Shown here: positions 12,904 through 64,000 of the stretch, one piece after another | Numbering within the stretch: position 1 is the stretch's first letter | Layout: every line of letters begins with the position of its first letter | NCBI RefSeq assembly: GCF_045037415.1 | Contig: NZ_CP173438.1 | Strand: one strand, 5' to 3' | DNA from: Escherichia coli | GTDB lineage: Bacteria > Pseudomonadota > Gammaproteobacteria > Enterobacterales > Enterobacteriaceae | Length of the DNA: 64,000 nucleotides | Position numbers and translations under genes: made by a program | Notes under the pieces: generated by a model | What the model saw: the letters and a program-made list of their open reading frames with translations, nothing else | Database searches by the model: none | Told to the model about the DNA's origin: nothing

Positions 12904-12996
12904 GGTGAGGTGGCCGAGAGGCTGAAGGCGCTCCCCTGCTAAGGGAGTATGCGGTCAAAAGCTGCATCCGGGGTTCGAATCCCCGCCTCACCGCCA
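12904..12996 (+). tRNA. serV: tRNA-Ser (anticodon GCU)
   Basis: 93-nt cloverleaf with long variable arm, anticodon loop CTGCTAA, 3' CCA encoded. Confidence 0.93.
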
Positions 12997-12999
12997 TTT

Positions 13000-13076
13000 G
13001 CATCCGTAGCTCAGCTGGATAGAGTACTCGGCTACGAACCGAGCGGTCGGAGGTTCGAATCCTCCCGGATGCACCA
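13000..13076 (+). tRNA. argV: tRNA-Arg (anticodon ACG), copy 1
   Basis: 77-nt gcatccgtagctcagctggatagagtactcggctacgaaccgagcggtcggaggttcgaatcctcccggatgcacca; anticodon loop CTACGAA. Confidence 0.93.
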
Positions 13077-13140
13077 TCTCTTACTTGATATGGCTTTAGT
13101 GGCGGTATCAAAAAATCTGCAGTAAAGTAAGTTTCCCGAT

Positions 13141-13217
13141 GCATCCGTAGCTCAGCTGGATAGAGTACTCGGCTACGAACCGAGCGGTCGGAGGTTCGAA
13201 TCCTCCCGGATGCACCA
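13141..13217 (+). tRNA. argY: tRNA-Arg (anticodon ACG), copy 2
   Basis: Identical 77-nt repeat. Confidence 0.93.
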
Positions 13218-13279
13218 TCTCTTACTTGATATGGCTTTAGTGGCGGTATCAATATCAGCAGTAAAATAAATTTCCCGAT

Positions 13280-13356
13280 GCATCCGTAGCTCAGCTGGAT
13301 AGAGTACTCGGCTACGAACCGAGCGGTCGGAGGTTCGAATCCTCCCGGATGCACCA
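13280..13356 (+). tRNA. argZ: tRNA-Arg (anticodon ACG), copy 3
   Basis: Identical 77-nt repeat. Confidence 0.93.
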
Positions 13357-13419
13357 TCTCTTACTTGATATGGCTTTAGTAGCGATATCAATATCAGCAG
13401 TAAAATAAATTTTCCCGAT

Positions 13420-13496
13420 GCATCCGTAGCTCAGCTGGATAGAGTACTCGGCTACGAACCGAGCGGTCGGAGGTTCGAATCCTCCCGGATGCACCA
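13420..13496 (+). tRNA. argQ: tRNA-Arg (anticodon ACG), copy 4
   Basis: Identical 77-nt repeat. Confidence 0.93.
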
Positions 13497-16406: not shown

Positions 16407-16479
16407 AAAAGGCCACTCGTGAGTGGCCAAAATTTCATCTCTGAATTCAGGGATGATGATAACAAATGCGCGTCTTTCA
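16407..16479 (-). ncRNA. micA: MicA (SraD) small regulatory RNA
   Basis: Reverse complement reads GAAAGACGCGCATTTGTTATCATCATCCCTGAATTCAGAGATGAAATTTTGGCCACTCACGAGTGGCCTTTTT, matching the MicA sequence as I recall it, with intrinsic terminator. Confidence 0.85.
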
Positions 16480-25135: not shown

Positions 25136-25215
25136 AGGTATGATAAGACGCGCCAGCGTCGCATCAGGCATTGTGTACAGAGCGGCGGATGAGGCAAAAA
25201 CGCCTTATCCGCCCG
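25136..25215. repeat. REP element plus hairpin in the proX-ygaY spacer
   Basis: gataagacgcgccagcgtcgcatcaggc REP-type palindrome and ggcggatgagg...ccttatccgcc hairpin. Confidence 0.55.
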
Positions 25216-43383: not shown

Positions 43384-44460
<1,077 letters not shown>

Positions 44461-45044
44461 TTACATATTGTTTTCTTATTGTGATCAAAAACAGCAAATT
44501 AATAACAAGTAATGTGAGGGATAAGAATTGGGTTGAAAGGAAATGAATAATTAAAACAATATATTAAGTGTGCTTATACTCTTTTTCGAACTGGTGGCAT
44601 TTGTTTAAATGCTATTTAAACTGCTTTTTCAGAGTTCAACTTACTGAGTTCCGTGTCGACTAATGTGAGTAAGATCAATCGCATCCAACCTATGTTACTT
44701 GATGGCATCGATAACAATATTAATGAACATACAGATTCCGGGAAGGCTGGCTATGGGGGCAAATTATTCTCTTTCTGGAAACGGGTAAATAACAGTGACC
44801 ATTTGTCGAGAAGCTGATACTGAGCTGAGGGATACTGTATATGTCTGGACTGTAATTGGATGAATTCTATTCAGGGCGGGTCAGGACCAATAAAAAAGCC
44901 CGCATCAGCGGGCTTTAATGTCATAGGGAGTCGCGACTCCGTTGCGTATCCTTTTTTGTCTCCTCACCGTCTGGTCGGTGTCCTGCTGAGACTTATAACT
45001 TCCTGTTTTTGTTGGTGTAGTCCTTACACCGTCCAATCATTATT

Positions 45045-45407
45045 TGGTGGAGCTGGCGGGAGTTGAACCCGCGTCCGAAATTCCTACATCCTCGGTACTA
45101 CATGCTTAGTCAGTCTTTACATTCGCTTGCCAGCTGCGGACGGACACGCCACTAACAAACTAGCCTGATTAAGTTTTAACGCTTCAACCCCAGGCAGGGC
45201 TTCCACGCGATCTCTTTTGGGTTTGACCTCTCTTGATCCCCGTCCTAAGAGCGGAGGCTAGGGAGAGAGGGCTCTAAGCAGGTTATTAAGCTGCTAAAGC
45301 GTAGTTTTCGTCGTTTGCGACTATTTTTTGCGGCTTTTTACGAGGCCAACCGCCCCTCGGCATGCACCTTGGGTTTCGCAAATCCCGTCGAATCCAGAAT
45401 CAGCCCC
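45045..45407 (-). ncRNA. ssrA: tmRNA (SsrA), 363 nt
   Basis: Minus strand begins GGGGCTGATTCTGGATTCGACGGGATTTGCGAAACCC and ends ...GGTTCAACTCCCGCCAGCTCCACCA; internal tag-peptide ORF region present. Confidence 0.95.
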
Positions 45408-45621
45408 AATGTGTAACGGTAAGTATACCAGATTTATGAGCAGCATGACTAGCCCAAAAGGCGTTATCATCCTGGAATTAGCGCCTGCATAGTATGATTT
45501 TTTTTCGATTAAGCAATGGGATGGCTACATCTGTGTCAGATTTGACAGTCGACAAGATGTTCATTCGCGCCACCGGATAGGGAGGCGCGGTGAGGATTTG
45601 ATTAGTATCGCTTATATAGGT

Positions 45622-46104
45622 TTAACGATGGGCGTTTTTCATGATACGCGCTTTATCCACCTGCCATTCGCGTTCTTTGATATCTGAACGTTTATCGTGC
45701 TGTTTTTTACCTTTGGCGACGCCGATTTTCACTTTGCACCAGGCATTTTTCCAGTACAGGGAGAGCGCCACTACGGTATAGCCTTCTCGATTTACGCGAC
45801 CGTACAATGAGTCCAGTTCGCGCTGGTTGAGAAGTAACTTGCGGGTACGGGTAGGATCGCACACCACATGCGTGGAGGCCACAGCCATTGGCGTGATGTT
45901 AGCGCCAAACAGAAATGCCTCTCCGTCACGCAGAAGGACGTAGCTGTCGCTGATATTGGCTTTTCCTGCACGCAGGGATTTAACCTCCCAGCCTTGCAGG
46001 GCAAGTCCCGCTTCGAACTCTTCTTCGATAAAGTATTCGTGACGGGCGCGCTTGTTAAGCGCGATGGTCGCTGAACCAGGTTTATGTGCTTTTTTCTTCG
46101 TCAT
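45622..46104 (-). CDS. smpB: SsrA-binding protein
   Basis: 160 aa, immediately upstream of tmRNA. Confidence 0.96.
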
Positions 46105-46235
46105 AAGCGTCGTGAATCATCGGTAATCTGAAATCGAAAACACCCCATATCAATCCTGCGGGGGACAAGGCTCTATCTTAGCATGATCCCGATGTTACCC
46201 AGCGCCGGGATAGCGTTTTTTTTACAGCAGGATAA

Positions 46236-46712
46236 ATGATATTATTTGTTGGATTTTTGTTGATGGAAATTGTTATGCCTCAGATTAGCCGGACCGCACT
46301 GGTACCCTACAGCGCGGAGCAAATGTATCAGTTAGTGAATGACGTTCAGTCTTATCCTCAGTTTTTACCAGGGTGCACTGGAAGCCGGATTCTGGAGTCC
46401 ACTCCTGGGCAGATGACCGCTGCGGTAGATGTGTCTAAGGCTGGGATCAGCAAAACGTTTACAACCCGCAACCAGTTGACCAGTAATCAAAGTATTCTCA
46501 TGAGTCTGGTTGATGGACCGTTTAAGAAATTGATAGGCGGTTGGAAGTTTACGCCGTTGAGCCAGGACGCGTGCCGTATTGAGTTTCATCTCGACTTTGA
46601 GTTTACCAATAAGTTGATTGAACTCGCCTTTGGTCGTGTGTTTAAAGAGCTGGCAGCTAATATGGTGCAGGCTTTTACTGTTCGTGCAAAAGAGGTCTAC
46701 AGTGCCAGGTAA
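46236..46712 (+). CDS. ratA: Ribosome association toxin RatA (SRPBCC/polyketide cyclase-like)
   Basis: 158 aa ORF; true start could instead be the internal ATG at 46275 (MPQISRT). Confidence 0.8.
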
Positions 46713-46992
46713 AATTGCCGTTGAGGTGGCTTATGCGCTACCTGAGAAGCAGTACCTGCAGCGCGTGACGTTGCAGGAGGGCGCGACGGTTGAAGAAGCT
46801 ATTCGCGCCAGTGGTTTGCTGGAATTGCGTACCGATATCGATTTAACTAAAAACAAAGTCGGCATTTACAGCCGTCCGGCAAAACTCAGCGATATTGTGC
46901 ATGATGGCGATCGGGTGGAGATTTATCGTCCTCTCATTGCCGATCCGAAAGAGCTTCGCAGGCAACGAGCAGAAAAATCAGCGAATAAATAA
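46702..46992 (+). CDS. ratB: RatB (UPF0125 family)
   Basis: 96 aa from GTG at 46702 (VPGKIAVEV...), overlapping ratA stop. Confidence 0.75.
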
Positions 46993-47053
46993 CAGACAGA
47001 AAAAAGGTGCTCATTGAGCACCTTTTTTAACGTCTTTGAGAGCAACTTTATTA

Positions 47054-47395
47054 TTAGTTACCACTCAGCGCAGGTTTGTTATCAATGTTGGTCAACACAC
47101 CGCTACTGTTAAAGGTCAGCGTCAGCGTTTGCTGCGTTACACCTTCATGACCAGGTTGCTGGCGGAAGACATAGAACCAGGTATTTGTACCAAATGGATC
47201 GGACATCAGCGGTGTACCCAATGCGTACGCAACTTGTTGTTGCGTCATGCCAACACGTATTTTGGATACGTCGTTAGCGGTCAGATAGTTCCCCTGGTTG
47301 ATGTCAGGACGGTAAACCACTCGCTCCAGAGTGGAACAGCCTGCGGTCAACATCAATAGTACTGCTGCTGCAGCAGTCAGCGTTTTACAGCGCAT
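47054..47395 (-). CDS. bamE: Outer membrane protein assembly factor BamE
   Basis: 113 aa lipoprotein (LTAGCS lipobox). Confidence 0.93.
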
Positions 47396-47543
47396 AGTGA
47401 TTTGATTCCTTTTCGGGCCCGAGCAGTACGTGGCTCATCTGTAATATGCCGATGATAATAGACCTTTCATCACTTTAAAACCTTTTGCTTTCCGGTCTTA
47501 CGGCGTTTTGCTGTTTACTCTGACCGTGAAGCAGGAAAAAAGT

Positions 47544-49205
47544 TTACGCCGCAAGCAGTTCTTTCGCATTCGCCAGTGTGTTACGTGTGACTTCACTGCC
47601 ACCAAGCAGGCGCGCCAACTCTTGTAACCGCGCTTTTTTATCCAGGGATTGCATATGCGTTTCTGTCATCGCACCATCGGTTTCTTTGCTGACAAAATAG
47701 TGTTGATGACCATATCCCGCGACTTGTGGCAGGTGGGTAACACACATCACCTGAGTTGATTCGCCAAGTTGACGTAGCAGTTTGCCGACAACTGCCGCTG
47801 TTGGGCCGCTAATCCCTACATCCACTTCATCAAAAATCAGTGCTGGGGTTTCCATTTTACGCGCGGTAATGACCTGGATTGCCAATGCGATGCGGGACAA
47901 CTCACCACCGGATGCGACTTTGGCAATAGGCTGCATTGGCTGACCTGGGTTGGTGGTTACCCGAAACTCAATACGATCAGCGCCGTCAGCGCCCAGGTGA
48001 TGCTCGTCAAATTTAACATCGATCGTAAACTGCCCATGTGGCATAGAGAGTGCATGCATACTATCGGTGATCAGCTGTGCCAACTCATTTGCATAATGCT
48101 GGCGTTGCTGGTGTAACGCGCGCGCCGTTTCCAGTGCCTGCTGATGATGTTTCGTTACCGCCAGCGCGAGCGTTTCTTGTGAGTCGGCCTGATCGTCCAG
48201 TTGCTGCTGTTCTTCCAGTAGCGACTGGTAATACTGTGGCAATGCCTCAGGGCTGACGTGATGTTTACGTGCCAGCGAAATCTGTTTTGAGATGCGCTGT
48301 TCAAGTTCAAACAGTCGGTTGGGATCGAGATCCAGACGATCGCAGTAGTGGCGTAGTTCATCACTGGCTTCAGCAATCTGGATGGTAGCCTCTTCCAGCA
48401 TATCAAGTACGCCGGACAGTTTGCTGTCCATGCCAATCAATTCGCTCACCAGTTGTTTAGCCGTGTAAAGTTGACTTTGCAGATTTGCGTCTTCACCGTC
48501 AGCCATTAATGCCAATGCATTCTGGCTGGTGGTCAGCAATTGACCGCTGTTCGCCAGACGTTTGTACTCTTCGTCGATTTGCTCAAACTCTCCAGGCTGC
48601 GGATTAAATTCGTTAAGTTCTTTTAATTGGTATTGCAGCAGCTCCGCACGGGCGGCGCGTTCCTGACTTAACTGCTGATGATGCGCGAGGTCACGGCAGC
48701 TTTGATGCCACAACTGATAACGTGCGGTCATTTCCTGGAGCTGAGAGGTTTCATTGGCATAGCCATCAAGCAGGAATTTTTGGTGCTCGGGTTTGGTGAG
48801 TAACTGATGAGCGTGCTGACCATGGATCTGAATCAGCAACTGACCCAGTTCGCGCAGTTGTGACAGAGGAACAGCTGTACCGTTGATGAAACCACGGGAG
48901 CGACCATCGCTGCTGATTACGCGACGAAGCAAACATTCATGCCCGTCTTCAAGCTGGTTTTCTTCCAGCCAACGCAGGGCCGCTGGCGTATCTTTCAGAG
49001 AAAAACGGGCGCACAGGTCGGCACGAGCAGCGCCGGTACGCACCATGTCGGCTTCAGCGCGACCACCGAGACAAAGGCCGAGGGCATCTATTGCAATAGA
49101 TTTACCCGCGCCGGTCTCGCCAGTTATTACGGTCATGCCGCTATGAAAATCAATCTCAAGCTCACGAACGATAGCAAAGTTGCTGATGGTCAGTTGTGCC
49201 AACAT
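47544..49205 (-). CDS. recN: DNA repair protein RecN (SMC-like)
   Basis: 553 aa, Walker A GETGAGKS. Confidence 0.96.
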
Positions 49206-49231
49206 AGTTGTTTTCCTGTATGAAAAACCAT

Positions 49232-49273
49232 TACTGTTATTGTGTACAGTATAAACTGGTTTTATATACAGTA
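49232..49273 (-). promoter_or_regulatory. Two tandem LexA SOS boxes in the recN promoter
   Basis: tactgttattgtgtacagta (49232-49251) and aactggttttatatacagta (49254-49273), both CTG-N10-CAG palindromes. Confidence 0.8.
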
Positions 49274-49290
49274 AAGAGGCTGGCGTAAAA

Positions 49291-50169
49291 TTAGAATAAT
49301 TTTTTTGACCAGCCGAGCTTGGTGCTTAATGTATTGAAATAACTGTAATCTTTCGGATGAATCAGATTCAGATGGTAATCACAGCGACGAATCAGGACAT
49401 CTTCACCTTCCTGAATCGGAAGTGCTATCTGGCTGTCGCAACTGATTTCCAGGTCGTTACGGCGATGCGAAAAACGCAGACGGATCGTGCTGCTGCTGTT
49501 TATGACCAGTGGTCGTGCTGACAACGTATGCGGGAACATGGGCACCAGGGTAATCGCATCCAGAGAGGGTGTCAGAATAGGACCGCCCGCAGAGAGGGAA
49601 TATGCGGTGGAGCCTGTTGGCGTCGAAATAATCAGTCCATCGGAACGCTGCGAAAACGCAAAGATCTCGTCGATATACACTTCGAACTCAATCATATGCG
49701 CTACTTTGCCAGGATGAAGTACCACTTCGTTAATCGCCGTGCTGATGCGTTTCTGGCAATCTTGCTGACAGACTTGCGCTTCCAGCAAAAAACGTTTCTC
49801 GCTGATGTAGTGGCCTTCCAGCACATCGGCTAATTGTTGCTGGGCGTTATCGGGATCAAGGTCAGTCAGGAAACCCAGGTTGCCACGGTTGATTCCAATA
49901 ACTTTAATATCGTAGCGGGCGAGCGTGCGCGCCGCGCCCAGCATATTACCGTCGCCGCCAACGACAACCGCGAGATCAGCCTGTTGCCCAATCTCCGCGA
50001 GCGTGCCAGTTTTCACATTCTTCAGTTGCAGTTCGTGAGCGATTTGTTGCTCAACGATGACCTCGTAACCTTTTGTGCACAGCCAGCGGTAGAGCATTTC
50101 ATGTGTTGTCAGTGCAGTGGGGTGCCGTGGGTGTCCCACAATGCCAATACACTTGAAATGATTATTCAT
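49291..50169 (-). CDS. nadK: NAD kinase
   Basis: 292 aa, GGDG motif. Confidence 0.95.
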
Positions 50170-50215
50170 TTTTCCGAGGTCCTTGTTGCGAAGATTGATG
50201 ACAATGTGAGTGCTT

Positions 50216-50246
50216 CCCTTGAAACCCTGAAACTGATCCCCATAAT
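50216..50246 (+). promoter_or_regulatory. Sigma32 heat-shock promoter of grpE
   Basis: CCCTTGAAA (-35) then 13 bp then CCCCATAAT (-10), matching sigma32 consensus CTTGAAA / CCCCATNT. Confidence 0.8.
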
Positions 50247-50258
50247 AAGCGAAGTTAG

Positions 50259-50885
<627 letters not shown>

Positions 50886-50938
50886 TTTCTGTTTTCGTAA
50901 TAAATCACGGTCCAGCATGCGAATGCCGGGCCGTTTTT

Positions 50939-52201
50939 TTACTCCGCCACACTCTCGCGCAGCGGTTTTACAGGAAAAACTTTTACCTGCTTAATCATAT
51001 TGTCCTGTACGTCGAGAATATCGATATCGTACTCGCCTATACGCACGCGGGTGCCTGCTACCGGAATCTCCTCCAGCGCTTCCAGAATGACGCCGTTAAC
51101 AGTACGAGCATCATCTTCCGGTAGATGCCAGTTAAAGGCTTTGTTAATTTCTCGCACGTTGGCGGTGCCATCGATAATCACCGACCCGTCGTTTTGCGGC
51201 GTGACCTCTTCGGCAAGTGTTGGCGACATCGACGTGGTGAAATCGCCGACAATCTCTTCGAGAATATCTTCGACCGTCACCAGCCCCTGAATGTCTCCAT
51301 ACTCGTTGACGACCAGGCCGACTTTCTTTTTGTTGCGCTGAAACTTCACCAACTGTGTGCTGAGCGGCGTACCCTCCGGGACAAAATAGATCTCGTCCGC
51401 GGCGCGTAGCATGGTTTCTTTGGTGAACTCTTTTTTCTCCGACATGAGTCGCCAGGCTTCACGCACACGCAGCATACTGATGGCGTCGTCCAGCGAATCA
51501 CGGTAGAGCACGATGCGCCCGTGAGGTGAGTGGGAGAGTTGGCGCAGAATCGATTTCCAGTCATCGTTGATATCAATACCGATAATTTCACTGCGCGGCA
51601 CCATGATGTCATCGACGGTCATCTTTTCCAGATCGAGTACCGACAGCAGCATATCCTGATTGCGACGGGAAATTTGTGACCGCGATTCGTGCACAATGGT
51701 GCGTAATTCTTCTTTGCTTAAAGAGCCACTAACCACGATATCGGTTTTGATGCCCATCATGCGCATTAACATGCGGGTAATAGCATTCAGCAACCAGACC
51801 AGCGGCATCATCAAAATTTGCAGCGGAGCCAGCAGAAAACTACTCGGATAAGCGACTTTTTCCGGGTACAGCGCGGCAATGGTTTTTGGCAATACCTCAG
51901 CAAAAACCAGCACGACAAAAGTCAGCACACCAGTCGCAATTGCCACGCCCGCATCGCCGTACAAACGCATTCCAACAATAGTGCCGAGCGCGGAGGCAAG
52001 AATATTGACCAGGTTATTGCCGATTAACACCAGGCTTATCAGGCGGTCTGGCTTACGCAGCAATTTTTCGACGCGTTTGGCCGAGCGATTACCCTGTTTC
52101 GCCATATGCCGCAGACGATAGCGGTTGAGGGTCATCATTCCGGTTTCGGACCCGGAAAAATAGGCTGAAATGACCACCATGATGATCAGAATAATGATCA
52201 A
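50939..52201 (-). CDS. yfjD: CorC/TlyC-family inner membrane protein (DUF21, CBS pair, CorC_HlyC)
   Basis: ORF-track start is TTG at 52201; the frame stays open upstream (LEHISTTT) so the true start is unresolved. Confidence 0.85.
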   Translation of the reverse strand: MIIILIIMVVISAYFSGSETGMMTLNRYRLRHMAKQGNRSAKRVEKLLRKPDRLISLVLIGNNLVNILASALGTIVGMRLYGDAGVAIATGVLTFVVLVFAEVLPKTIAALYPEKVAYPSSFLLAPLQILMMPLVWLLNAITRMLMRMMGIKTDIVVSGSLSKEELRTIVHESRSQISRRNQDMLLSVLDLEKMTVDDIMVPRSEIIGIDINDDWKSILRQLSHSPHGRIVLYRDSLDDAISMLRVREAWRLMSEKKEFTKETMLRAADEIYFVPEGTPLSTQLVKFQRNKKKVGLVVNEYGDIQGLVTVEDILEEIVGDFTTSMSPTLAEEVTPQNDGSVIIDGTANVREINKAFNWHLPEDDARTVNGVILEALEEIPVAGTRVRIGEYDIDILDVQDNMIKQVKVFPVKPLRESVAE

Positions 52202-52245
52202 CGTAGTAGTAGAAATGTGTTCCAGGGGAAACTCCTTTTCTGGGT

Positions 52246-53037
52246 TTAGCTGATTAACTGCTGAAAAATTCGGCTGCCGAAGTAGGCCAGTGTCAGAATG
52301 ACTGCACCCGCAACGTTAAACCAGACGACGCGGCGTCCACGCCATCCTTCATGATAATGTCCCCACAGCAGCACAATATAGACAAACCACGCCACGATAG
52401 AGAGCACGGCCTTGTCGATATTTTCCATGCTAAATAAGTTGTGCATGTAGAACAGGCCAGTGCAAAGAGTGAGCGTTAGCAGCACCACGCCAATCTGCGT
52501 GATATGGAACATTTTACGCTCGATACTCATCAATGGCGGCATTTCCTGGTTAAACGCCAGCTTCTTGTTCTTCAGTTGGTAATCAATCCACGCCAGTTGC
52601 AGCGCGTACAGGGCAGCGATAATTAGCGTGGCATAGGAAAAAAGCGATAAGCCAATGTGCACCAGCATCCCCGGCGTTGCTTCCAGATGGGTGATGTATT
52701 CATTGGGCATAAAGGTCGCCAGCGCTAGGTTGATAAGCGCAAAGGCATAGACAATGGGTAGCAACAACCAGCCACGATTGCGAGAAGCCACAATGGTCAT
52801 TACCGTACAGATCATCAAACTGACCAATGAACCAACGTTCAGCAGGCTGAGGTTTTGTCCGCTATCACCGTCGGGCAGGATGCGGGCTTCCAGAGCGATT
52901 GCGTGGCAGACCAGCGCGATGACCGCAGAAATAATAGCCATGCGCCGCCAGCCGCCGTTTTTTTGCAGCAGACCGGGAACAATCAGCGCAAGACTGACGG
53001 AGTAGGCGACAAGCGCGAGCAGAGCAAAAACGGGCAT
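52246..53037 (-). CDS. ypjD: Cytochrome c assembly-like inner membrane protein
   Basis: 263 aa from MPVFALLALVAY; polytopic. Confidence 0.85.
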   Translation of the reverse strand: MPVFALLALVAYSVSLALIVPGLLQKNGGWRRMAIISAVIALVCHAIALEARILPDGDSGQNLSLLNVGSLVSLMICTVMTIVASRNRGWLLLPIVYAFALINLALATFMPNEYITHLEATPGMLVHIGLSLFSYATLIIAALYALQLAWIDYQLKNKKLAFNQEMPPLMSIERKMFHITQIGVVLLTLTLCTGLFYMHNLFSMENIDKAVLSIVAWFVYIVLLWGHYHEGWRGRRVVWFNVAGAVILTLAYFGSRIFQQLIS

Positions 53038-53203
53038 AGTAATGTCGACAGTTTGAGCAATAAGAAAGAGAAGCAGTATAGCGTCAGGTGAACGCTGCTC
53101 CAACCGTTGCATAACAACAAAGACGCCTTCATGTTATACTGCGGCAAAATACTGATGATGTGTCGCGATTGCGGCCAACCGTTTCCACCCCAGGCGAGAG
53201 ACA

Positions 53204-54565
53204 ATGTTTGATAATTTAACCGATCGTTTGTCGCGCACGCTGCGCAATATCAGTGGCCGTGGACGCCTCACTGAAGACAACGTAAAAGATACGCTGCGCG
53301 AAGTGCGCATGGCGCTGCTGGAGGCTGACGTCGCTCTGCCGGTAGTGCGTGAGTTTATCAATCGCGTAAAAGAGAAAGCGGTTGGTCATGAAGTTAATAA
53401 GAGCCTGACGCCGGGGCAGGAGTTCGTCAAAATTGTCCGTAACGAACTGGTTGCGGCGATGGGCGAAGAGAACCAGACCCTGAACCTGGCTGCGCAACCG
53501 CCTGCGGTCGTGCTGATGGCGGGCCTGCAAGGTGCCGGTAAAACAACCAGCGTTGGTAAACTCGGTAAGTTCCTGCGCGAGAAGCACAAGAAGAAAGTAC
53601 TGGTGGTTTCTGCCGACGTCTATCGCCCGGCGGCAATCAAACAGCTTGAGACGCTGGCAGAGCAGGTGGGCGTTGATTTCTTCCCTTCTGATGTTGGTCA
53701 GAAGCCGGTAGATATCGTTAACGCGGCGCTGAAAGAAGCCAAACTGAAATTCTACGACGTGCTGCTGGTGGATACTGCCGGTCGTCTGCACGTTGACGAA
53801 GCGATGATGGACGAGATCAAACAAGTCCATGCGTCGATTAATCCGGTTGAAACCCTATTTGTGGTCGATGCCATGACCGGTCAGGATGCGGCCAATACGG
53901 CAAAAGCATTCAATGAAGCGTTACCGCTTACCGGTGTAGTGTTGACCAAAGTGGACGGCGATGCCCGCGGCGGTGCGGCGCTCTCTATTCGTCACATCAC
54001 TGGCAAACCGATCAAGTTCCTCGGTGTTGGCGAGAAAACCGAGGCGCTGGAGCCATTCCATCCGGACCGTATTGCCTCCCGTATTCTCGGCATGGGCGAC
54101 GTACTGTCACTGATCGAAGATATCGAAAGCAAAGTTGACCGCGCGCAAGCTGAGAAATTAGCCAGCAAGCTGAAAAAAGGCGACGGCTTCGATCTCAACG
54201 ACTTTCTTGAGCAGCTGCGCCAGATGAAAAATATGGGCGGCATGGCTAGCCTGATGGGCAAGCTGCCGGGCATGGGGCAGATCCCGGATAACGTCAAGTC
54301 GCAGATGGACGATAAAGTGCTGGTGCGTATGGAAGCCATCATCAACTCGATGACGATGAAAGAGCGCGCTAAGCCAGAAATCATCAAAGGTTCGCGTAAG
54401 CGCCGTATCGCTGCCGGTTGCGGTATGCAGGTGCAGGACGTTAACCGTCTTCTGAAACAGTTCGACGACATGCAGCGCATGATGAAGAAAATGAAGAAGG
54501 GCGGGATGGCGAAGATGATGAGAAGCATGAAAGGGATGATGCCGCCGGGATTTCCTGGTCGCTAA
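53204..54565 (+). CDS. ffh: Signal recognition particle protein Ffh
   Basis: 453 aa, GTPase G-domain GLQGAGKTT and Met-rich M domain. Confidence 0.97.
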   Translation: MFDNLTDRLSRTLRNISGRGRLTEDNVKDTLREVRMALLEADVALPVVREFINRVKEKAVGHEVNKSLTPGQEFVKIVRNELVAAMGEENQTLNLAAQPPAVVLMAGLQGAGKTTSVGKLGKFLREKHKKKVLVVSADVYRPAAIKQLETLAEQVGVDFFPSDVGQKPVDIVNAALKEAKLKFYDVLLVDTAGRLHVDEAMMDEIKQVHASINPVETLFVVDAMTGQDAANTAKAFNEALPLTGVVLTKVDGDARGGAALSIRHITGKPIKFLGVGEKTEALEPFHPDRIASRILGMGDVLSLIEDIESKVDRAQAEKLASKLKKGDGFDLNDFLEQLRQMKNMGGMASLMGKLPGMGQIPDNVKSQMDDKVLVRMEAIINSMTMKERAKPEIIKGSRKRRIAAGCGMQVQDVNRLLKQFDDMQRMMKKMKKGGMAKMMRSMKGMMPPGFPGR

Positions 54566-54623
54566 ATGACCTTATGCGACAGAGTTATTAACTGCTGATT
54601 GCATTTTCTCCAGAAATCAGTAA

Positions 54624-54950
<327 letters not shown>

Positions 54951-54968
54951 TCTGTCACGGTGGTCATG

Positions 54969-55517
54969 ATGAGCAAACAACTCACCGCGCAAGCACCTGT
55001 TGATCCCATCGTTTTGGGAAAAATGGGTTCGTCTTACGGTATTCGTGGGTGGCTCAGAGTGTTTTCTTCCACCGAAGACGCCGAAAGCATTTTTGACTAT
55101 CAGCCCTGGTTTATCCAGAAGGCGGGTCAGTGGCAGCAAGTCCAGCTGGAAAGCTGGAAGCACCACAATCAGGACATGATCATCAAGCTGAAAGGCGTTG
55201 ACGATCGTGATGCGGCGAACCTGCTGACGAATTGTGAAATTGTCGTGGATTCATCGCAGTTGCCTCAGCTTGAAGAGGGTGACTACTACTGGAAAGACCT
55301 GATGGGCTGCCAGGTAGTAACCACTGAAGGCTACGATCTCGGTAAAGTCGTAGATATGATGGAAACCGGATCTAATGACGTTCTCGTCATTAAGGCAAAC
55401 CTGAAAGATGCGTTTGGTATCAAGGAACGTATCGTACCGTTCCTCGATGGGCAGGTTATCAAGAAAGTCGATCTCACTACTCGTTCAATCGAAGTAGATT
55501 GGGATCCTGGTTTTTAA
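54969..55517 (+). CDS. rimM: Ribosome maturation factor RimM
   Basis: 182 aa from [10 protein letters not shown]. Confidence 0.95.
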
Positions 55518-55547
55518 ACCACCGGATAAACGGTAAAAGACGGCGCT

Positions 55548-56315
55548 ATGTGGATTGGCATAATTAGCCTGTTTCCTGAAATGTTCCGCGCAATTACCGA
55601 TTACGGGGTAACTGGCCGGGCAGTTAAAAATGGCCTGCTGAGCATCCAGAGCTGGAGTCCTCGCGACTTCACGTATGATCGGCACCGTACCGTGGACGAT
55701 CGTCCTTACGGCGGCGGACCGGGGATGTTAATGATGGTGCAACCCTTGCGGGACGCCATTCATGCAGCAAAAGCCGCGGCGGGTGAAGGCGCAAAGGTGA
55801 TTTATCTGTCACCACAGGGACGCAAGCTTGATCAAGCGGGCGTCAGCGAGCTGGCAACGAATCAAAAATTGATTCTGGTGTGCGGTCGCTACGAAGGTAT
55901 AGATGAGCGCGTGATCCAAACCGAAATTGATGAAGAATGGTCAATCGGCGATTACGTTCTCAGTGGTGGTGAGTTACCAGCAATGACGCTGATTGACTCC
56001 GTTTCCCGGTTTATTCCGGGAGTACTGGGACATGAGGCCTCGGCAACGGAAGACTCCTTTGCTGAAGGATTGCTGGATTGCCCGCACTATACGCGGCCTG
56101 AGGTGTTAGAAGGGATGGAAGTTCCGCCAGTGTTACTGTCGGGCAACCATGCCGAGATACGTCGCTGGCGTTTGAAACAGTCGCTGGGCCGTACCTGGCT
56201 TAGAAGACCTGAACTTCTGGAAAACCTGGCTCTGACTGAAGAGCAAGCAAGGTTGCTGGCGGAGTTCAAAACGGAACACGCACAACAGCAACATAAACAT
56301 GATGGGATGGCGTAA
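55548..56315 (+). CDS. trmD: tRNA (guanine37-N1)-methyltransferase
   Basis: 255 aa SPOUT-family MTase. Confidence 0.96.
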
Positions 56316-56353
56316 GCCCCCGAGATATCAGTTTACCCAGGATAAGAGATTAA

Positions 56354-56704
<351 letters not shown>

Positions 56705-56780
56705 GATTTCGCTTAAGCGACATCCTGTTAAGAAGGGCTGGCCAATTGGCTGGCCCTTTTTTTGTCTGTTTGCTCGTGTT

Positions 56781-57263
56781 TTAAGGGGTTGTAATCACCA
56801 CTGCGACGCGGCGGTTTTCGGCGCGGCCCTGGGCGGTCTTGTTACTGGCTATGGGATATTTTTTTCCTAAACCCTGTGTGATGAGATTGCTGCGCGGAAT
56901 TTGTCCACCCATAGCCCATGCATCGGCCACGACATTCGCCCGTTTTAATGATAAGACTTCGTTGTAACTGTCTTCACCATAGTTGTCGGTGTGTCCATCC
57001 ATACGGGCATGTGTTAGCCCTGTCGAGGCCAATTTGGCTGCCATGGTTTGGATTTGTTGCTGGCTTTCCGGGAGCAATTTGTAGTCATTTTTTGCGAACA
57101 GAATGGCATCTGATAAGCCCAGCGACCAGTCGCCGGCGGATTCAGTAAATCCATAAGATTGCATAGCGGCGACTTGCTCAGGAGTAAACTTTCCCTGAGG
57201 GGACTGGCAGCCAGTAAGTATTAGCGAGGTGAAAATCAGGGGGGCTAGCAGGTGCTTTATCAT
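56781..57263 (-). CDS. yfiB: OmpA-family outer membrane lipoprotein, activator of DgcN
   Basis: 160 aa, lipobox LTGCQ, OmpA-like peptidoglycan-binding domain. Confidence 0.9.
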   Translation of the reverse strand: MIKHLLAPLIFTSLILTGCQSPQGKFTPEQVAAMQSYGFTESAGDWSLGLSDAILFAKNDYKLLPESQQQIQTMAAKLASTGLTHARMDGHTDNYGEDSYNEVLSLKRANVVADAWAMGGQIPRSNLITQGLGKKYPIASNKTAQGRAENRRVAVVITTP

Positions 57264-57278
57264 ATCGATATATCCTTG

Positions 57279-58505
57279 TTATCTCACCAGTTTTTCGGCA
57301 CGCTGGTGTTTGGCCTGATACATATTGTGATCGGCAAGCTCTTGTAAATTTTCCGCAGAGGCGTGCTCAATGGTCATCGCGTAACCAATGCTTAATGTCA
57401 TGGTAGTTTGATGGCCATTATGAAGATCAAACGGGAGATTAAAAATTTGTGTCAGTGCTGAGCATATCTGCTGCACTTCAGATTCCGACTGTACATCATA
57501 GAGCACCATAGCGAATTCATCGCCGCCCAGGCGGTATGCTTTATGTCGCAGCCCGCCAAATTCAGCTAACCGTTTTGCTATTTCAATCAAGACTCTATCG
57601 CCCGTCGCATGACCCCAGGTATCATTGATATATTTGAAATTATCGCCATCAAGAAATAGTAACGCCGACGTTTTTCGGGCATCGGAATTGTTCATCAACG
57701 TGTTGATGCCGCTACGAAACGCTGCGCGGTTAGCCAGCCCGGTTAATGGGTCATGTAGCGCGGTACGTAGAAGCTGCGCATTTTTGGCCTGTAAACGAAG
57801 CTGCCACTCTTCCATTTCATCCAGCAGACTGTTGAAGTCGAGAGCGAAGCGGTGAAACTCAGCGATACGTTCTTCCGAAACTCGTCGGGAAAAATTGCGG
57901 TTAGAACGCACATCATGTACGACATCGGTGATATTTTTCAGCGCTTCCACCAGGCCATTGTGCAAATGGCGGGTGAGGGTAATTGCGATGCCTGATGCCA
58001 GCAGAATACAACCGGTCAGGACAGCGAGCGAAAACCAGATAAAATGGCTGATTGAACTGTCGCGAGCAGTTAAGCGTACTTCGCCAATGGTTTCACTATT
58101 GTGACGAATCGGCTGAATGATGGGGGCAGGGAAGAGCCAGTGGCTTATGAAATTGCTGAAAGTATCGCCTGGTTCCTTATGGGTGTAATGCCAGGATGCC
58201 AGAATATTTTGCTGCTTATCACGCACTTCTGCAGTTGAAAATTGGCCTTGCTGGCCCAGCGCTGCCAGTGTTTCAGTTGCTGCAGGGCCATCGGCAAAAA
58301 CGACAGCTGCTTCCAGACTGTAAGTCATTGTTGCTGCTGTCAGTGCCAGGTTTTTTTGCGCGTATTGTTTCAGGGTTAGCACTGACGTCACGGAAAGCAG
58401 CAGCCAGATCAGCGTCATAGTGATAAATATGCTGGTCATGCTGATGTTGCGTAATGCTCTTTTAAACGTGGGGCGCTTATGAAGAGAATTATCGTTATCC
58501 ATCAT
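57279..58505 (-). CDS. dgcN: Diguanylate cyclase (TM, HAMP, GGDEF)
   Basis: 408 aa with RLGGDEF active-site motif. Confidence 0.92.
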
Positions 58506-59013
58506 TTTTCTTCCGTGCGAGCATTAAGACATCCGGGTTGACCTTTACACCGCTACGCGATAAGGCATCCAGGTTTACGGCAAATCTGACGTCATTATTG
58601 TGGATGATCAGACAAAAGGCGCTACCAATAATGCACTCGGTATTTTGTTCGGCAATTAATAATAACGCCTTTGACGGATATTGTTCGGTTAATTCCATCT
58701 GGAATGTCGGTGACTCGTTGCCAAAATAAAAACCATTGCAGCCTGAAATTATCGCCTCTTGTTGAGTATGAATGATGACAGGCAGATAAGGTAAAGATGT
58801 AGCAGCATTTTCTTGTAAGGCGGTACTAAAACGTGAAGATGAAAAGATACATAACTTTGGTGGCCCTGATAGCCCAGGCCAGCGGGTGTAACTGACAATA
58901 CCGGAAACCATCATACGCACGTTTTTCGCAACGTCAGAAGGTTCCTGAGCGAGTATTGGTGCTCCCGTCAGCAGGAGAATCAGCAGTAAGAACAGTCGGT
59001 GAGAAAAACGCAT
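58495..59013 (-). CDS. yfiR: Periplasmic repressor of DgcN
   Basis: 172 aa with signal peptide; overlaps dgcN start. Confidence 0.88.
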
Positions 59014-59159
59014 TCAGGGATCCTCACCATCTTCGCTCGAAATGCATCGATATTTTTTCAGAATGCTCATTAAAATATCATCCTTTCATGCGGTCGTCAT
59101 CAATGTGAGAAATAAAACATAATGAGTAAAATCTCATGCTTAATTTATTTTGGGGGTAA

Positions 59160-59525
59160 TTAATTTAATCGTATTGTGCTGGCATTTTCATCAGCCCCTT
59201 TTCGCCATACTTCATGCAGTTGGCTGGCATTTTCAACATTATTGCAGCTGGCAGGAAAGCTTTTACCAGAAAGCCCCCGGGCATAAGTAAAATCGGTCTG
59301 GCAAGTTTTCTTTTGCCCTTCGGCATATCCTTTAAGGTATAGACCGCGATCCGCCTGTGAATCGCTAAATGCATCGTCATCTTTAATGGCGCTGCCCGAT
59401 ATCGCATCTTCCATACCAACATCATACCAGTCGGTGCTGGTCAAGGTTGGCGCGTGAGTATAAGGATCAATCTGACATCCGCTAACCAGTAAAGCCAACA
59501 AGGGGGCGATAAATTTTTTCATCAT
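59160..59525 (-). CDS. yfiL: Small lipoprotein YfiL
   Basis: 121 aa from MMKKFIAPLLALLVSGC; AAGGAG SD 7 nt upstream; the ORF-track upstream ATG lies inside the SD. Confidence 0.8.
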   Translation of the reverse strand: MMKKFIAPLLALLVSGCQIDPYTHAPTLTSTDWYDVGMEDAISGSAIKDDDAFSDSQADRGLYLKGYAEGQKKTCQTDFTYARGLSGKSFPASCNNVENASQLHEVWRKGADENASTIRLN

Positions 59526-59569
59526 TTCTTTCTCCTTTTTCAAAGCATAGCGGATTGTTTTTAAAGATG

Positions 59570-59700
59570 GTGTAAATTTATATATACAGAAATAAGGGTA
59601 AAAAGCGCGAATAAATTGCTTACGTAAAGAAATGTGTACGAAATATGGATTGAAAACTTTACTTTATGTGTTATCGTTACGTCATCCTCGCTGAGGATCA
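59570..59700 (+). promoter_or_regulatory. aroF promoter region with TyrR-box-like motifs
   Basis: TGTAAATTTATATATACA and related TGTAAA-N6-TTTACA-like half-sites upstream of aroF; exact box boundaries not resolved. Confidence 0.45.
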
Positions 59701-59734
59701 ACTATCGCAAACGAGCATAAACAGGATCGCCATC

Positions 59735-60805
59735 ATGCAAAAAGACGCGCTGAATAACGTACATATTACCGACGAACAGGTTTTAATGACTCCGGAACAA
59801 CTGAAGGCCGCTTTTCCATTAAGCCTGCAACAAGAAGCCCAGATTGCTGACTCGCGTAAAACCATTTCAGATATTATCGCCGGGCGCGATCCTCGTCTTC
59901 TGGTAGTATGTGGTCCTTGTTCCATTCATGATCCGGAAACTGCTCTGGAATATGCTCGTCGATTTAAAGCCCTTGCCGCAGAGGTCAGCGATAGCCTCTA
60001 TCTGGTAATGCGCGTCTATTTTGAAAAACCCCGTACCACTGTCGGCTGGAAAGGGTTAATTAACGATCCCCATATGGATGGCTCTTTTGATGTAGAAGCC
60101 GGGCTGCAGATCGCGCGTAAATTGCTGCTTGAGCTGGTGAATATGGGACTGCCACTGGCGACGGAAGCGTTAGATCCGAATAGCCCGCAATACCTGGGCG
60201 ATCTGTTTAGCTGGTCAGCAATTGGTGCTCGTACAACGGAATCGCAAACTCACCGTGAAATGGCCTCCGGGCTTTCCATGCCGGTTGGTTTTAAAAACGG
60301 CACCGATGGCAGTCTGGCAACGGCAATTAACGCTATGCGCGCCGCCGCCCAGCCGCACCGTTTTGTTGGCATTAACCAGGCAGGGCAGGTTGCGTTGCTA
60401 CAAACTCAGGGGAATCCGGACGGGCATGTGATCCTGCGCGGTGGTAAAGCGCCAAACTATAGCCCTGCGGATGTTGCGCAATGTGAAAAAGAGATGGAAC
60501 AGGCGGGACTGCGCCCGTCTCTGATGGTAGATTGCAGCCACGGTAATTCCAATAAAGATTATCGCCGTCAGCCTGCGGTGGCAGAATCCGTGGTTGCTCA
60601 AATCAAAGATGGCAATCGCTCAATTATTGGTCTGATGATCGAAAGTAATATCCACGAGGGCAATCAGTCTTCCGAGCAACCGCGCAGTGAAATGAAATAC
60701 GGTGTATCCGTAACCGATGCCTGCATTAGCTGGGAAATGACCGATGCCTTGCTGCGTGAAATTCATCAGGATCTGAACGGGCAGCTGACGGCTCGCGTGG
60801 CTTAA
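59735..60805 (+). CDS. aroF: DAHP synthase, Tyr-sensitive
   Basis: 356 aa from [11 protein letters not shown]. Confidence 0.95.
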
Positions 60806-60815
60806 GAGGTTTATT

Positions 60816-61937
60816 ATGGTTGCTGAGTTGACCGCATTACGCGATCAAATTGATGAAGTCGATAAAGCGCTGCTGAATTTATTAGCGAAGCGTCTGGAAT
60901 TGGTTGCTGAAGTGGGCGAGGTGAAAAGCCGATTTGGACTGCCTATTTATGTTCCGGAGCGCGAGGCATCTATGTTGGCCTCGCGTCGTGCGGAGGCGGA
61001 AGCTCTGGGTGTACCGCCAGATCTGATTGAGGATGTTTTGCGTCGGGTGATGCGTGAATCTTACTCCAGTGAAAACGACAAAGGATTTAAAACGCTTTGT
61101 CCGTCACTGCGCCCGGTGGTTATCGTCGGTGGTGGCGGTCAGATGGGACGTCTGTTCGAGAAGATGCTGATACTCTCGGGTTATCAGGTGCGGATTCTGG
61201 AGCAACATGACTGGGATCGAGCGGCTGATATTGTTGCCGATGCCGGAATGGTGATTGTTAGTGTGCCCATCCACGTTACTGAGCAAGTTATCGGCAAATT
61301 ACCGCCTTTACCGAAAGATTGTATTCTGGTTGATCTGGCATCAGTGAAAAATGGACCATTACAGGCCATGCTGGCGGCGCACGATGGCCCGGTGCTGGGG
61401 TTACACCCGATGTTCGGCCCGGACAGCGGTAGCCTGGCAAAGCAAGTTGTGGTCTGGTGTGATGGACGTAAGCCGGAAGCATACCAATGGTTTCTGGAGC
61501 AAATTCAGGTCTGGGGCGCTCGGTTGCATCGTATTAGCGCTGTCGAGCACGATCAGAATATGGCGTTTATTCAGGCTCTGCGCCACTTTGCTACTTTTGC
61601 TTATGGGCTGCACCTGGCAGAAGAAAATGTTCAGCTTGAGCAACTACTGGCGCTCTCTTCGCCGATTTACCGCCTTGAGCTGGCGATGGTCGGGCGACTG
61701 TTTGCTCAGGATCCGCAGCTTTATGCCGACATTATTATGTCGTCAGAGCGTAATCTGGCGTTAATCAAACGTTACTATAAGCGTTTCGGCGAGGCGATTG
61801 AGTTGCTGGAGCAGGGCGATAAGCAGGCGTTTATTGACAGTTTCCGCAAGGTGGAGCACTGGTTCGGCGATTACGCACAGCGTTTTCAGAGTGAAAGCCG
61901 CGTGTTATTGCGTCAGGCGAATGACAATCGCCAGTAA
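60816..61937 (+). CDS. tyrA: Bifunctional chorismate mutase / prephenate dehydrogenase
   Basis: 373 aa. Confidence 0.96.
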
Positions 61938-61979
61938 TAATCCAGTGCCGGATGATTCACATCATCCGGCACTTTTTCA

Positions 61980-63140
61980 TCAGGTTGGATCAACAGGCAC
62001 TACGTTCTCACTTGGGTAACAGCCCAATACCTTCATCGAACGGGTGATTTCCCCTAACTCTTTCAATGCTTTTTGCATTTCCGCTGATTCAAGATTGGCC
62101 TGAATATCCAGATAAAACATCTCTTCCCACGGATTACCGTGAATCGGACGTGATTCCAGACGGGTCATAATTAGACTGTGGTTGCGCAGTACCAGCAACG
62201 CTTCAACCAGTGCACCAGCTTGTTGTCCGGTCGCCATTAACAACGTCGTTTTCGCCGGAACCTGGTCAGAAACGTTAATGGCTTTACGTGCCAACACCAC
62301 AAATCGGGTGAAGTTTTGTCGCTGATTCGCTTCAATACGCTCCAGTACCTGCAAACCGTACAAAGTGCCGCCAGCTTCGCTTCCCAACGCAGCAACATGC
62401 GGTGATTTTGCCTGTGCAACCTTTTCCATTGCCGCAGACGTACTTTCGGTATATTCAATCTTCCAGTGCGGATAACGATTAAGGAATTTGCTGCATTGCT
62501 GGAACGGCTGCGGATGGCTGTAGACCGTATTGATGGTGGATAAATCAGTAGTGCCGGAGACCAACAAACAATGATCGATAGTTAACGTCATCTCGCCAAC
62601 AATCGACAAACTGGTATGTTGCAGCAGATCGTAAACGTCGTTTATGGCACCGGAGCTGGTATTTTCAATCGGTACGACGGCATAGTCGGCCTGGCCGGTT
62701 TCCACCTGATTAAAAATATCGGCAAATTTGGCGCAGCCACTTTCAATGAATTGCTCAAAGTGACGGGCAGCATACTGGCGCGCCGCAAGATGGGAATAAG
62801 AACCTTTGGGGCCGAGAAAAGCGATGCGTGCTGAGTGCGGATTAATTTTATTGAGATGTTGCTGGAGTAAAGCCTGCTGAGTTAATACGGAATCTTCAAT
62901 GATGAGCTGGAACAGGCGAGTAATGTAATGGGCGTCCAGATGGTGCGCTTTACCGAGCGTAATTAATCTTTCCAGCAAATCGCGTTCACGATCAATATCA
63001 CGTACCGGGCGATGCGAAAGCAGTTTGGCTTTTCCCACCTCGACGACCAGTTCGCGTCGCTCTGCCAGTAATGCTAATAATTTTTCATCCAGCGCGCTGA
63101 TTTTTTCTCGCAGCGCCAGTAACGGGTTTTCCGATGTCAT
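61980..63140 (-). CDS. pheA: Bifunctional chorismate mutase / prephenate dehydratase
   Basis: 386 aa with C-terminal ACT domain. Confidence 0.96.
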
Positions 63141-63149
63141 AGTGTTGCC

Positions 63150-63195
63150 TTTTTGTTATCAATAAAAAAGGCCCCCCGATTTGGGAGGCCTTATT
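63150..63195 (-). terminator. pheA attenuator terminator
   Basis: Minus-strand hairpin ggcctcccaaatcggggggcc followed by TTTTTTATT between pheL and pheA. Confidence 0.8.
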
Positions 63196-63238
63196 GTTCG
63201 TCTTCGCATTCTGTTTCACACGACGAAACGCCTCCCAT

Positions 63239-63286
63239 TCAGGGGAAGGTAAAAAAGAATGCGAAGAAAAACGGTGTGTGTTTCAT
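63239..63286 (-). CDS. pheL: pheA leader peptide (15 aa, Phe-rich)
   Basis: Manual translation [15 protein letters not shown] with seven Phe codons. Confidence 0.88.
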   Translation of the reverse strand: [15 protein letters not shown]

Positions 63287-63389
63287 GTTTGTTTCCTTAA
63301 GTGACTTTAGTACAGTACCCGTACTGTTTTCACGCTGTCAACAAAAAACGCGCCCGAAGGCGCGTTGGCGATACACTCAATATAAAGGA

Positions 63390-63785
<396 letters not shown>

Positions 63786-63954
63786 TCAAAATGTGTGATG
63801 GAAATCTCATAATTTTGTCACTTTTTGTCAACGAATCTTTTTTGTGAGAAATCGCAGGAAGAGGTGTTTTTTTACTTGAGGAATATCTCAAAGCGGGCCA
63901 TATTTGATGAGATCGATAGTGACTAAATCGCTTCAGTTTCACAACTAACAGAAT

Positions 63955-63990
63955 AAAAAAACGGCAGCTCAAGGCTGCCGTTTTGTGTTT
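63955..63990 (-). terminator. Intrinsic terminator of the upstream minus-strand gene (beyond the window end)
   Basis: Minus-strand hairpin aaaacggcagccttgagctgccgtttt followed by T-run. Confidence 0.5.
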
Positions 63991-64000
63991 CAGGTTTCTG

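What the first reader, a model, noticed from the sequence alone, without database searches (positions are those of the whole stretch)
63239..63286. pheL leader peptide variant (Thr at position 4)
The leader reads [15 protein letters not shown], whereas I recall the K-12 leader as [15 protein letters not shown]. The seven Phe codons and the attenuator hairpin are preserved, so regulation is probably unaffected; it is a strain marker.
Basis: partly seen in the sequence, partly recalled or inferred. Interest (0 to 1): 0.2.

Follow-up and report, generated by a model that had tools for sequence, protein, structure and literature searches.

The report
Common Thr4 allele of pheL leader
The pheL leader peptide here differs from the K-12 lab strain at residue 4 (Thr, not Ile), but Thr is the usual and ancestral E. 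coli form, so this is an ordinary, already annotated sequence.

Summary
The minus strand of window 63239-63286 encodes [15 protein letters not shown], and K-12 encodes [15 protein letters not shown]. One base causes the difference: window 63276, codon ACA versus K-12 ATA. It is the only difference from K-12 between the end of raiA and the start of pheA. The region is a full-length Rfam Phe_leader (132 bits; gathering score 55) sitting between raiA and pheA.

The framing as a "variant" or "strain marker" is the wrong way round. Among 5,426 complete E. coli genomes, the Thr4 (ACA) 41-mer is present in 3,994 (73.6%) and the K-12 Ile4 (ATA) 41-mer in 1,398 (25.8%). Thr4 carriers include O157:H7, O145, O104:H4, BL21 and a strain named ST-131. 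E. albertii and a separate Escherichia species also encode Thr4, so Thr4 is ancestral and K-12's Ile4 is the derived minority allele. RefSeq already annotates the Thr4 peptide as WP_001386991.1.

The variant base lies four nucleotides upstream of the first paired base of the attenuator. Both alleles give identical predicted structures and energies, free or with ribosome masks. Position 4 takes 13 different residues across Enterobacterales. This is a neutral polymorphism, already known and of minimal interest.

The parts
63239..63286 (-). pheL leader-peptide ORF: [15 protein letters not shown], stop codon TGA at 63239-63241, ending TTC_CCC_TGA
   Evidence: Translation. RefSeq annotation of pheL (WP_001386991.1) at the same position in the 100%-identical SK1144 genome.
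63276..63276 (-). The single polymorphic base: C on the minus strand (codon 4 ACA, Thr); K-12 has T (ATA, Ile)
   Evidence: Pairwise alignment with K-12. 41-mer census: 3,994 genomes with ACA against 1,398 with ATA.
63162..63287 (-). Phe leader / pheA attenuator RNA (Rfam RF01859), full length
   Evidence: cmscan 132.2 bits against a gathering score of 55, model positions 1-125 of 125.
63196..63272 (-). Predicted long stem pairing the Phe-codon segment with the downstream AAACAGAAUGCGAAGACGAAC segment (pause/protector stem). It starts 4 nt downstream of the variant base.
   Evidence: ViennaRNA minimum-free-energy structure, identical for both alleles at -51.7 kcal/mol. It agrees with the Rfam consensus structure line.
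63172..63246 (-). Predicted antiterminator. The end of pheL plus UGGGAGGC pairs with the 5' arm of the terminator. It forms only when a ribosome is stalled on the Phe codons.
   Evidence: Constrained folds with the ribosome A site at codons 6, 8 or 10 replace the terminator with this helix; the result is identical for both alleles.
63162..63192 (-). Intrinsic terminator (attenuator): AAGGCCTCCC-AAATC-GGGGGGCCTT followed by TTTTTT
   Evidence: Terminator scan: 10-pair stem with 7 G-C pairs and a T-run. Rfam structure. Present in the free fold and in the fold with a ribosome at the stop codon.
61980..63140 (-). pheA (chorismate mutase / prephenate dehydratase), the gene regulated by the leader
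   Evidence: 386-aa ORF. Annotation in identical genomes.
63390..63731 (-). raiA, the upstream neighbour. Its own terminator lies at 63347-63366, just before the pheA promoter region.
   Evidence: ORF list, annotation, terminator scan.

Best explanation
This is the standard E. coli pheL-pheA ribosome-mediated transcription attenuator, carrying the common and ancestral Thr4 (ACA) allele of the leader peptide. The expected mechanism is classical. RNA polymerase transcribes the leader while a ribosome translates the 15-codon ORF. When Phe-tRNA is scarce, the ribosome stalls on the seven Phe codons. That frees the segment around the pheL stop codon (UGGGAGGC) to pair with the 5' arm of the terminator, so transcription reads through into pheA. 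When Phe is plentiful, the ribosome reaches the UGA, covers that segment, and the terminator hairpin plus U-run forms and stops transcription. Codon 4 lies upstream of every paired segment, in the one block of the ORF (codons 3-4) that varies freely among Enterobacterales. The Thr/Ile difference is therefore a neutral polymorphism. The K-12 lineage acquired ACA>ATA; this window did not change. What is shown here: the sequence identity, the allele frequencies, the outgroup states and the in-silico structural equivalence. What is inferred: the in-vivo regulatory behaviour and the neutrality.
For: The peptide and the K-12 difference are confirmed. Rfam Phe_leader matches full length at 132 bits, with the variant base in the unpaired 5' part of the model. 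The terminator is found. Both alleles give the same minimum-free-energy structure (-51.7 kcal/mol) and the same structures with ribosome masks: antiterminator when stalled at codons 6-10, terminator with the ribosome at the stop codon. The codon-4 bases have pairing probability of 0.15 or less. Census of 5,426 complete genomes: ACA 41-mer in 3,994, ATA 41-mer in 1,398; 80-nt exact matches 2,872, 1,382 and 686. All 6 sampled genomes that matched neither 80-nt query were Thr4. Outgroups E. albertii (ACT) and Escherichia sp. MOD1-EC7003 (ACA) are Thr4 in orthologous pheL-pheA loci. In the 117 enterobacterial-type leader peptides recovered, position 4 takes 13 different residues. Gurvich et al. 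2011 (PMC3082878) state that apart from the AUG, the Phe codons and UUC_CCC_UGA, pheL codons vary. They name only codons -1, -2 and -10 as affecting terminal +1 frameshifting, and their abstract reports that this frameshifting does not appear to influence pheA expression. RefSeq annotates the Thr4 peptide as WP_001386991.1, 'pheA operon leader peptide PheL'.
Against: There is no experimental comparison of the two alleles. ATA is a rare E. coli codon read by a specialised tRNA-Ile (established knowledge), so a small kinetic difference early in leader translation cannot be excluded by sequence analysis. Residue 4 is the -11 codon, next to Pro5 (-10), which has a two-fold effect on terminal frameshifting; whether -11 was tested alone is not stated in the text I could read. 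The genome collection is biased towards lab K-12 derivatives and clinical clones, so the percentages describe the database and not natural populations.
Confidence: 0.92

Rival explanations
1. The Thr4/Ile4 difference is functional. Swapping ACA for the rare AUA codon, or Thr for Ile in the nascent peptide, would change early elongation speed, ribosome-polymerase coupling or terminal +1 frameshifting. That would shift the attenuation set-point of pheA between K-12-like strains and other E. coli.
For: AUA is a rare codon in E. coli (established knowledge). The nascent PheL peptide does influence +1 frameshifting at CCC_UGA, and the adjacent Pro5 (-10) codon has a two-fold effect. The pairing probability of the codon-4 bases differs slightly between alleles, 0.02 against 0.15.
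Against: The predicted structures and energies are identical in every state tested. Position 4 is the most variable position of the peptide across Enterobacterales, with 13 residues. [quoted passage not shown] Both alleles persist at high frequency in healthy lineages.
Confidence: 0.05
2. Thr4 is a lineage-specific marker of this particular strain or clone.
For: It does distinguish the window from K-12. The last 20 kb of the window is 100% identical to a specific set of clinical strains: ZH063, 81009, H105 and SK1144.
Against: The same 80-nt sequence is found unchanged in 2,872 genomes, including O157:H7, O145 and BL21. The Thr4 41-mer is in 73.6% of genomes and in other Escherichia species. 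It is an inherited ancestral state and carries no strain information beyond 'not the Ile4 group'.
Confidence: 0.02
3. The base at 63276 is a sequencing or assembly error in the window.
For: None beyond its being a single-base difference from the reference strain.
Against: The identical base is present in 3,994 independently sequenced complete genomes. Several genomes are 100% identical to the window over 20 kb.
Confidence: 0.005

Closest known systems
E. coli K-12 pheL (phe operon leader peptide, RefSeq WP_010723158.1) and its pheA attenuator
   Same: Same locus (raiA-pheL-pheA) and same 15-codon ORF with seven Phe codons ending UUC_CCC_UGA. The Shine-Dalgarno region, pause stem, antiterminator, terminator and U-run are identical. 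Only one base differs between the end of raiA and the pheA start.
   Different: Codon 4 is ACA (Thr) here and ATA (Ile) in K-12. The K-12 form is the derived allele, found in 25.8% of genomes.
RefSeq WP_001386991.1, 'pheA operon leader peptide PheL' (for example E. coli O157:H7 PV15-279 and SK1144)
   Same: Identical peptide [15 protein letters not shown] and identical DNA over the 80-nt and 301-nt queries. The window's pheL is this protein.
   Different: Nothing.
Rfam RF01859 Phe_leader; the 'CCC_UGA' group of pheL genes of Gurvich et al. 2011 (PMC3082878)
   Same: Full-length covariance-model match. It ends UUC_CCC_UGA, as do all 19 members of that enterobacterial group.
   Different: None relevant. 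The model consensus at codons 3-4 is weakly conserved, consistent with free variation there.

Membership tests
Phe_leader (Rfam RF01859) / pheL-pheA ribosome-mediated attenuator | Covariance-model score at or above the curated gathering threshold, over the full model | tested here: met
   132.2 bits against a gathering score of 55, model positions 1-125 of 125, E = 4.7e-25.
Phe_leader (Rfam RF01859) / pheL-pheA ribosome-mediated attenuator | Short leader ORF with a run of regulatory Phe codons | tested here: met
   15 codons, 7 of them Phe: FFF-A-FFF-T-F.
Phe_leader (Rfam RF01859) / pheL-pheA ribosome-mediated attenuator | Intrinsic terminator (G+C-rich hairpin plus U-run) between the leader ORF and pheA | tested here: met
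   10-pair stem with 7 G-C pairs followed by TTTTTT at 63192-63162 on the minus strand; present in the minimum-free-energy fold.
Phe_leader (Rfam RF01859) / pheL-pheA ribosome-mediated attenuator | An alternative antiterminator helix, mutually exclusive with the terminator and favoured when a ribosome stalls on the Phe codons | tested here: met
   In silico only. Masking a ribosome footprint at codons 6, 8 or 10 gives the antiterminator; masking at the stop codon gives the terminator.
Phe_leader (Rfam RF01859) / pheL-pheA ribosome-mediated attenuator | Located immediately upstream of pheA and co-oriented with it | tested here: met
   pheA starts at 63140, 98 nt after the pheL stop codon, on the same strand.
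Phe_leader (Rfam RF01859) / pheL-pheA ribosome-mediated attenuator | Phenylalanine-dependent read-through in vivo | not testable with these tools
   Needs reporter or transcript assays. Inferred from the one-base difference from the experimentally studied K-12 leader.
Enterobacterial 'CCC_UGA' pheL group (Gurvich et al. 2011) | ORF ends with UUC_CCC_UGA | tested here: met
   The minus strand reads ...ACC TTC CCC TGA; the feature is defined in PMC3082878.

The most novel reading that the evidence does not exclude
The derived K-12 allele, not this one, might be the functionally interesting form. A rare AUA codon at position 4 is read by a specialised low-abundance tRNA-Ile. It could slow the leading ribosome and subtly change ribosome-polymerase coupling or terminal frameshifting. 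If so, K-12-type strains would have a different basal pheA attenuation level from the roughly three-quarters of E. coli genomes that carry ACA, and K-12 attenuation measurements would be slightly unrepresentative of the species.
Probability: 0.05. Interest if true: 0.2.

Novelty: already known. Interest (0 to 1): 0.03.

Why it matters
It matters very little biologically. The window carries the ordinary E. coli pheA attenuator. The useful lesson is methodological: K-12 is not a proxy for the species. At this site K-12 holds the minority, derived allele (Ile4, 25.8% of complete genomes). A difference from K-12 should therefore not be read as a variant of the query without a population and outgroup check. 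The site can separate K-12-like Ile4 strains from the rest, but it has no strain-level resolution.

Tried and rejected
- **Literature search for the peptides.** A full-text search for the two peptide strings found nothing.
- **Gurvich et al. supplement.** The file listing pheL sequence sources is not held as text, so I could not confirm that the paper's Figure 2 lists the Thr4 E. coli allele separately.
- **Promoter scan.** The sigma-70 consensus scan found no promoter in 63100-63420 under its criteria. A perfect TTGACA is visible at 63341-63336 on the minus strand, but I did not assign a -10 box or a start site.
- **80-nt census.** The 80-nt queries left about 485 genomes unassigned. SNP-centred 41-mers resolved this, leaving 34 unassigned.
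- **Outgroup scan.** Three of the 120 hits (Lentimicrobium and Bacteroidales) are longer unrelated ORFs, not pheL.
- **Sequencing-error and strain-specific-marker readings.** Both were considered and rejected on the census.

Full report
**Observation.** The minus strand of window 63239-63286 translates to [15 protein letters not shown]; the plus strand gives nothing meaningful. The DNA is ATG AAA CAC ACA CCG TTT TTC TTC GCA TTC TTT TTT ACC TTC CCC TGA. Seven of the 15 codons are Phe. The finding's coordinates, peptide and Phe count are all correct.

**What the locus is.** Rfam Phe_leader (RF01859) matches 63162-63287 on the minus strand over the full model, at 132.2 bits against a gathering score of 55.
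- The ORF is followed by an intrinsic terminator, AAGGCCTCCC-AAATC-GGGGGGCCTT plus a T-run, at 63192-63162.
- The 386-aa pheA ORF starts at 63140.
- raiA (63390-63731) and its own terminator (63366-63347) lie upstream.
- aroF and tyrA lie beyond pheA on the other strand.
- The last 20 kb of the window is 100% identical to several complete E. coli chromosomes: SK1144, ZH063, 81009 and H105. In SK1144, RefSeq annotates pheL (WP_001386991.1) at exactly the finding's coordinates. From my own knowledge, not tested here, several of these strains belong to ST131 (phylogroup B2).

**Comparison with the reference.** Over 301 nt, from the end of raiA into pheA, there are two differences.
- Window 63276 (minus-strand C; ACA Thr) against K-12 T (ATA Ile).
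- A synonymous GAA/GAG difference at pheA codon 11.

Everything regulatory is identical: the Shine-Dalgarno region, the Phe codons, UUC_CCC_UGA, the pause, antiterminator and terminator segments, and the U-run.

**Which allele is the variant?** I searched 5,426 complete E. coli genomes.

| Query | Allele | Genomes matching exactly |
|---|---|---|
| 80 nt | Window (Thr4) | 2,872 |
| 80 nt | K-12 (Ile4) | 1,382 |
| 80 nt | Thr4 plus A>G 22 nt upstream of the ATG | 686 |
| 41 nt, SNP-centred | ACA (Thr4) | 3,994 (73.6%) |
| 41 nt, SNP-centred | ATA (Ile4) | 1,398 (25.8%) |

- All six genomes sampled from those matching neither the window nor the K-12 80-nt query carried Thr4, as ACA or ACG.
- With a 41-mer centred on the SNP, megablast's 28-base word means the other allele cannot seed a hit. 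This census left 34 genomes unassigned.
- Thr4 carriers include O157:H7, O145, O104:H4, BL21, APEC O18, B7A, LY180 and a strain named ST-131.
- Ile4 carriers are K-12 and its lab derivatives (TOP10, J53, NCM3722, EV36) plus other, mostly small-genome, strains.
- PGAP's product names track the alleles: 'phe operon leader peptide' (WP_010723158.1) for Ile4 and 'pheA operon leader peptide PheL' (WP_001386991.1) for Thr4.
- The collection over-represents lab K-12 derivatives, so Ile4 is probably rarer still in nature. That last point is inference.

- E. albertii encodes MKHTP... with ACT. Escherichia sp. MOD1-EC7003 encodes MKHTP... with ACA.
- Alignment confirms that both are orthologous pheL-pheA attenuators followed by [18 protein letters not shown].
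- Both outgroups also share the window's GAA at pheA codon 11, so K-12 is derived at both differences.
- In the 117 enterobacterial-type leader peptides recovered, position 4 takes 13 different residues: L 33, V 25, T 18, D 9, I 7, Q 7, F 6 and others.
- In the alignment, codons 3-4 form the only variable block within the ORF; the rest is invariant apart from one wobble position.
- The only other MKHIP leader was in the distant Budvicia aquatica, which must be convergent.

**Could the base matter for the RNA switch?** I folded the 151-nt leader (63310-63160, minus strand) for both alleles.
- Both give the same minimum-free-energy structure at -51.7 kcal/mol: a long stem pairing the Phe-codon segment with AAACAGAAUGCGAAGACGAAC, plus the terminator.
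- The variant base is 4 nt upstream of the first paired base. Its pairing probability is 0.02 for ACA and 0.15 for ATA.
- With a 30-nt ribosome footprint placed at Phe codons 6, 8 or 10, both alleles switch to the same antiterminator. In it, the end of pheL plus UGGGAGGC pairs with the terminator's 5' arm.
- With the ribosome at the stop codon, both form the terminator. This reproduces the classical attenuation logic and shows no allele dependence.
- These are thermodynamic predictions, not experiments.

**Literature.** Gurvich et al. 2011 (PMC3082878) catalogued 53 unique pheL genes.
- E. coli falls in an enterobacterial group whose members all end UUC_CCC_UGA.
- They note that apart from the AUG, the Phe codons and that ending, variation occurs at all positions.
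[quoted passage not shown] Residue 4 is codon -11 and is not singled out.
- According to their abstract, this frameshifting does not appear to influence pheA expression in S. enterica.
- No paper containing either peptide string was found.

**Verdict.** The window carries the common, ancestral, already annotated E. coli PheL, and K-12 is the variant. This is a neutral polymorphism of negligible interest. The only reading the evidence leaves open is a small kinetic effect of K-12's rare AUA codon, which I put at about 5%.

Noticed in passing
window 63308 (equivalent position); loci L002-L004 position 159: A third common haplotype, exact in 686 genomes, carries Thr4 plus an A>G change 22 nt upstream of the pheL ATG (ACTGTACTAAAG to ACTGTACTGAAG). 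This lies in the presumed -10/start region of the pheA promoter. E. albertii also has G there.
   Followed up: partly
L005 (NZ_CP024141, strain 14EC029) and L006 (NZ_CP076645, strain MSI001): Rarer PheL variants: [15 protein letters not shown] (T13I) and [15 protein letters not shown] (F7S + T13I, only six Phe codons). Both also change the first base after the stop codon region (TGAAT to TGAAA). In MSI001 a phage integrase gene, not raiA, lies just upstream of pheL.
   Followed up: no
window 44000-64000, compared with ZH063, USVAST219, SK0189 and SK1402: Several otherwise 100%-identical strains match this 20 kb in two pieces spanning about 1.44 kb more, and have an annotated IS4 transposase. 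The window, like SK1144, lacks that IS4 insertion.
   Followed up: no
window 63111 (pheA codon 11): Synonymous GAA (window, E. albertii, Escherichia sp.) against GAG (K-12). K-12 is the derived state here too.
   Followed up: yes
window 45045-45407 (-), 16407-16478 (-), 25137-25214 (-), 12904-13496 (+): Other RNA genes in the window: ssrA tmRNA (tag ANDENYALAA), MicA sRNA, a naRNA4 match just above its gathering score, and a tRNA-Ser(GCT) plus four tandem tRNA-Arg(ACG) cluster.
   Followed up: no
L018, L117, L118 (Lentimicrobium and Bacteroidales MAGs): The degenerate pheL pattern also hit ORFs beginning MKNKLFFFAFFFAVMFSASITQAQ.... These run on well past 15 codons and look like N-terminal signal sequences of ordinary proteins, not Phe leaders.
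   Followed up: no
the 301-nt query against E. coli genomes: There were 5,580 places in 5,425 genomes, so about 155 genomes hold a second partial match to the raiA-pheL-pheA segment (for example O158:H23 CFIAFB20140388, where the match starts at query base 35). This could be a split by an insertion or a local duplication.
   Followed up: no
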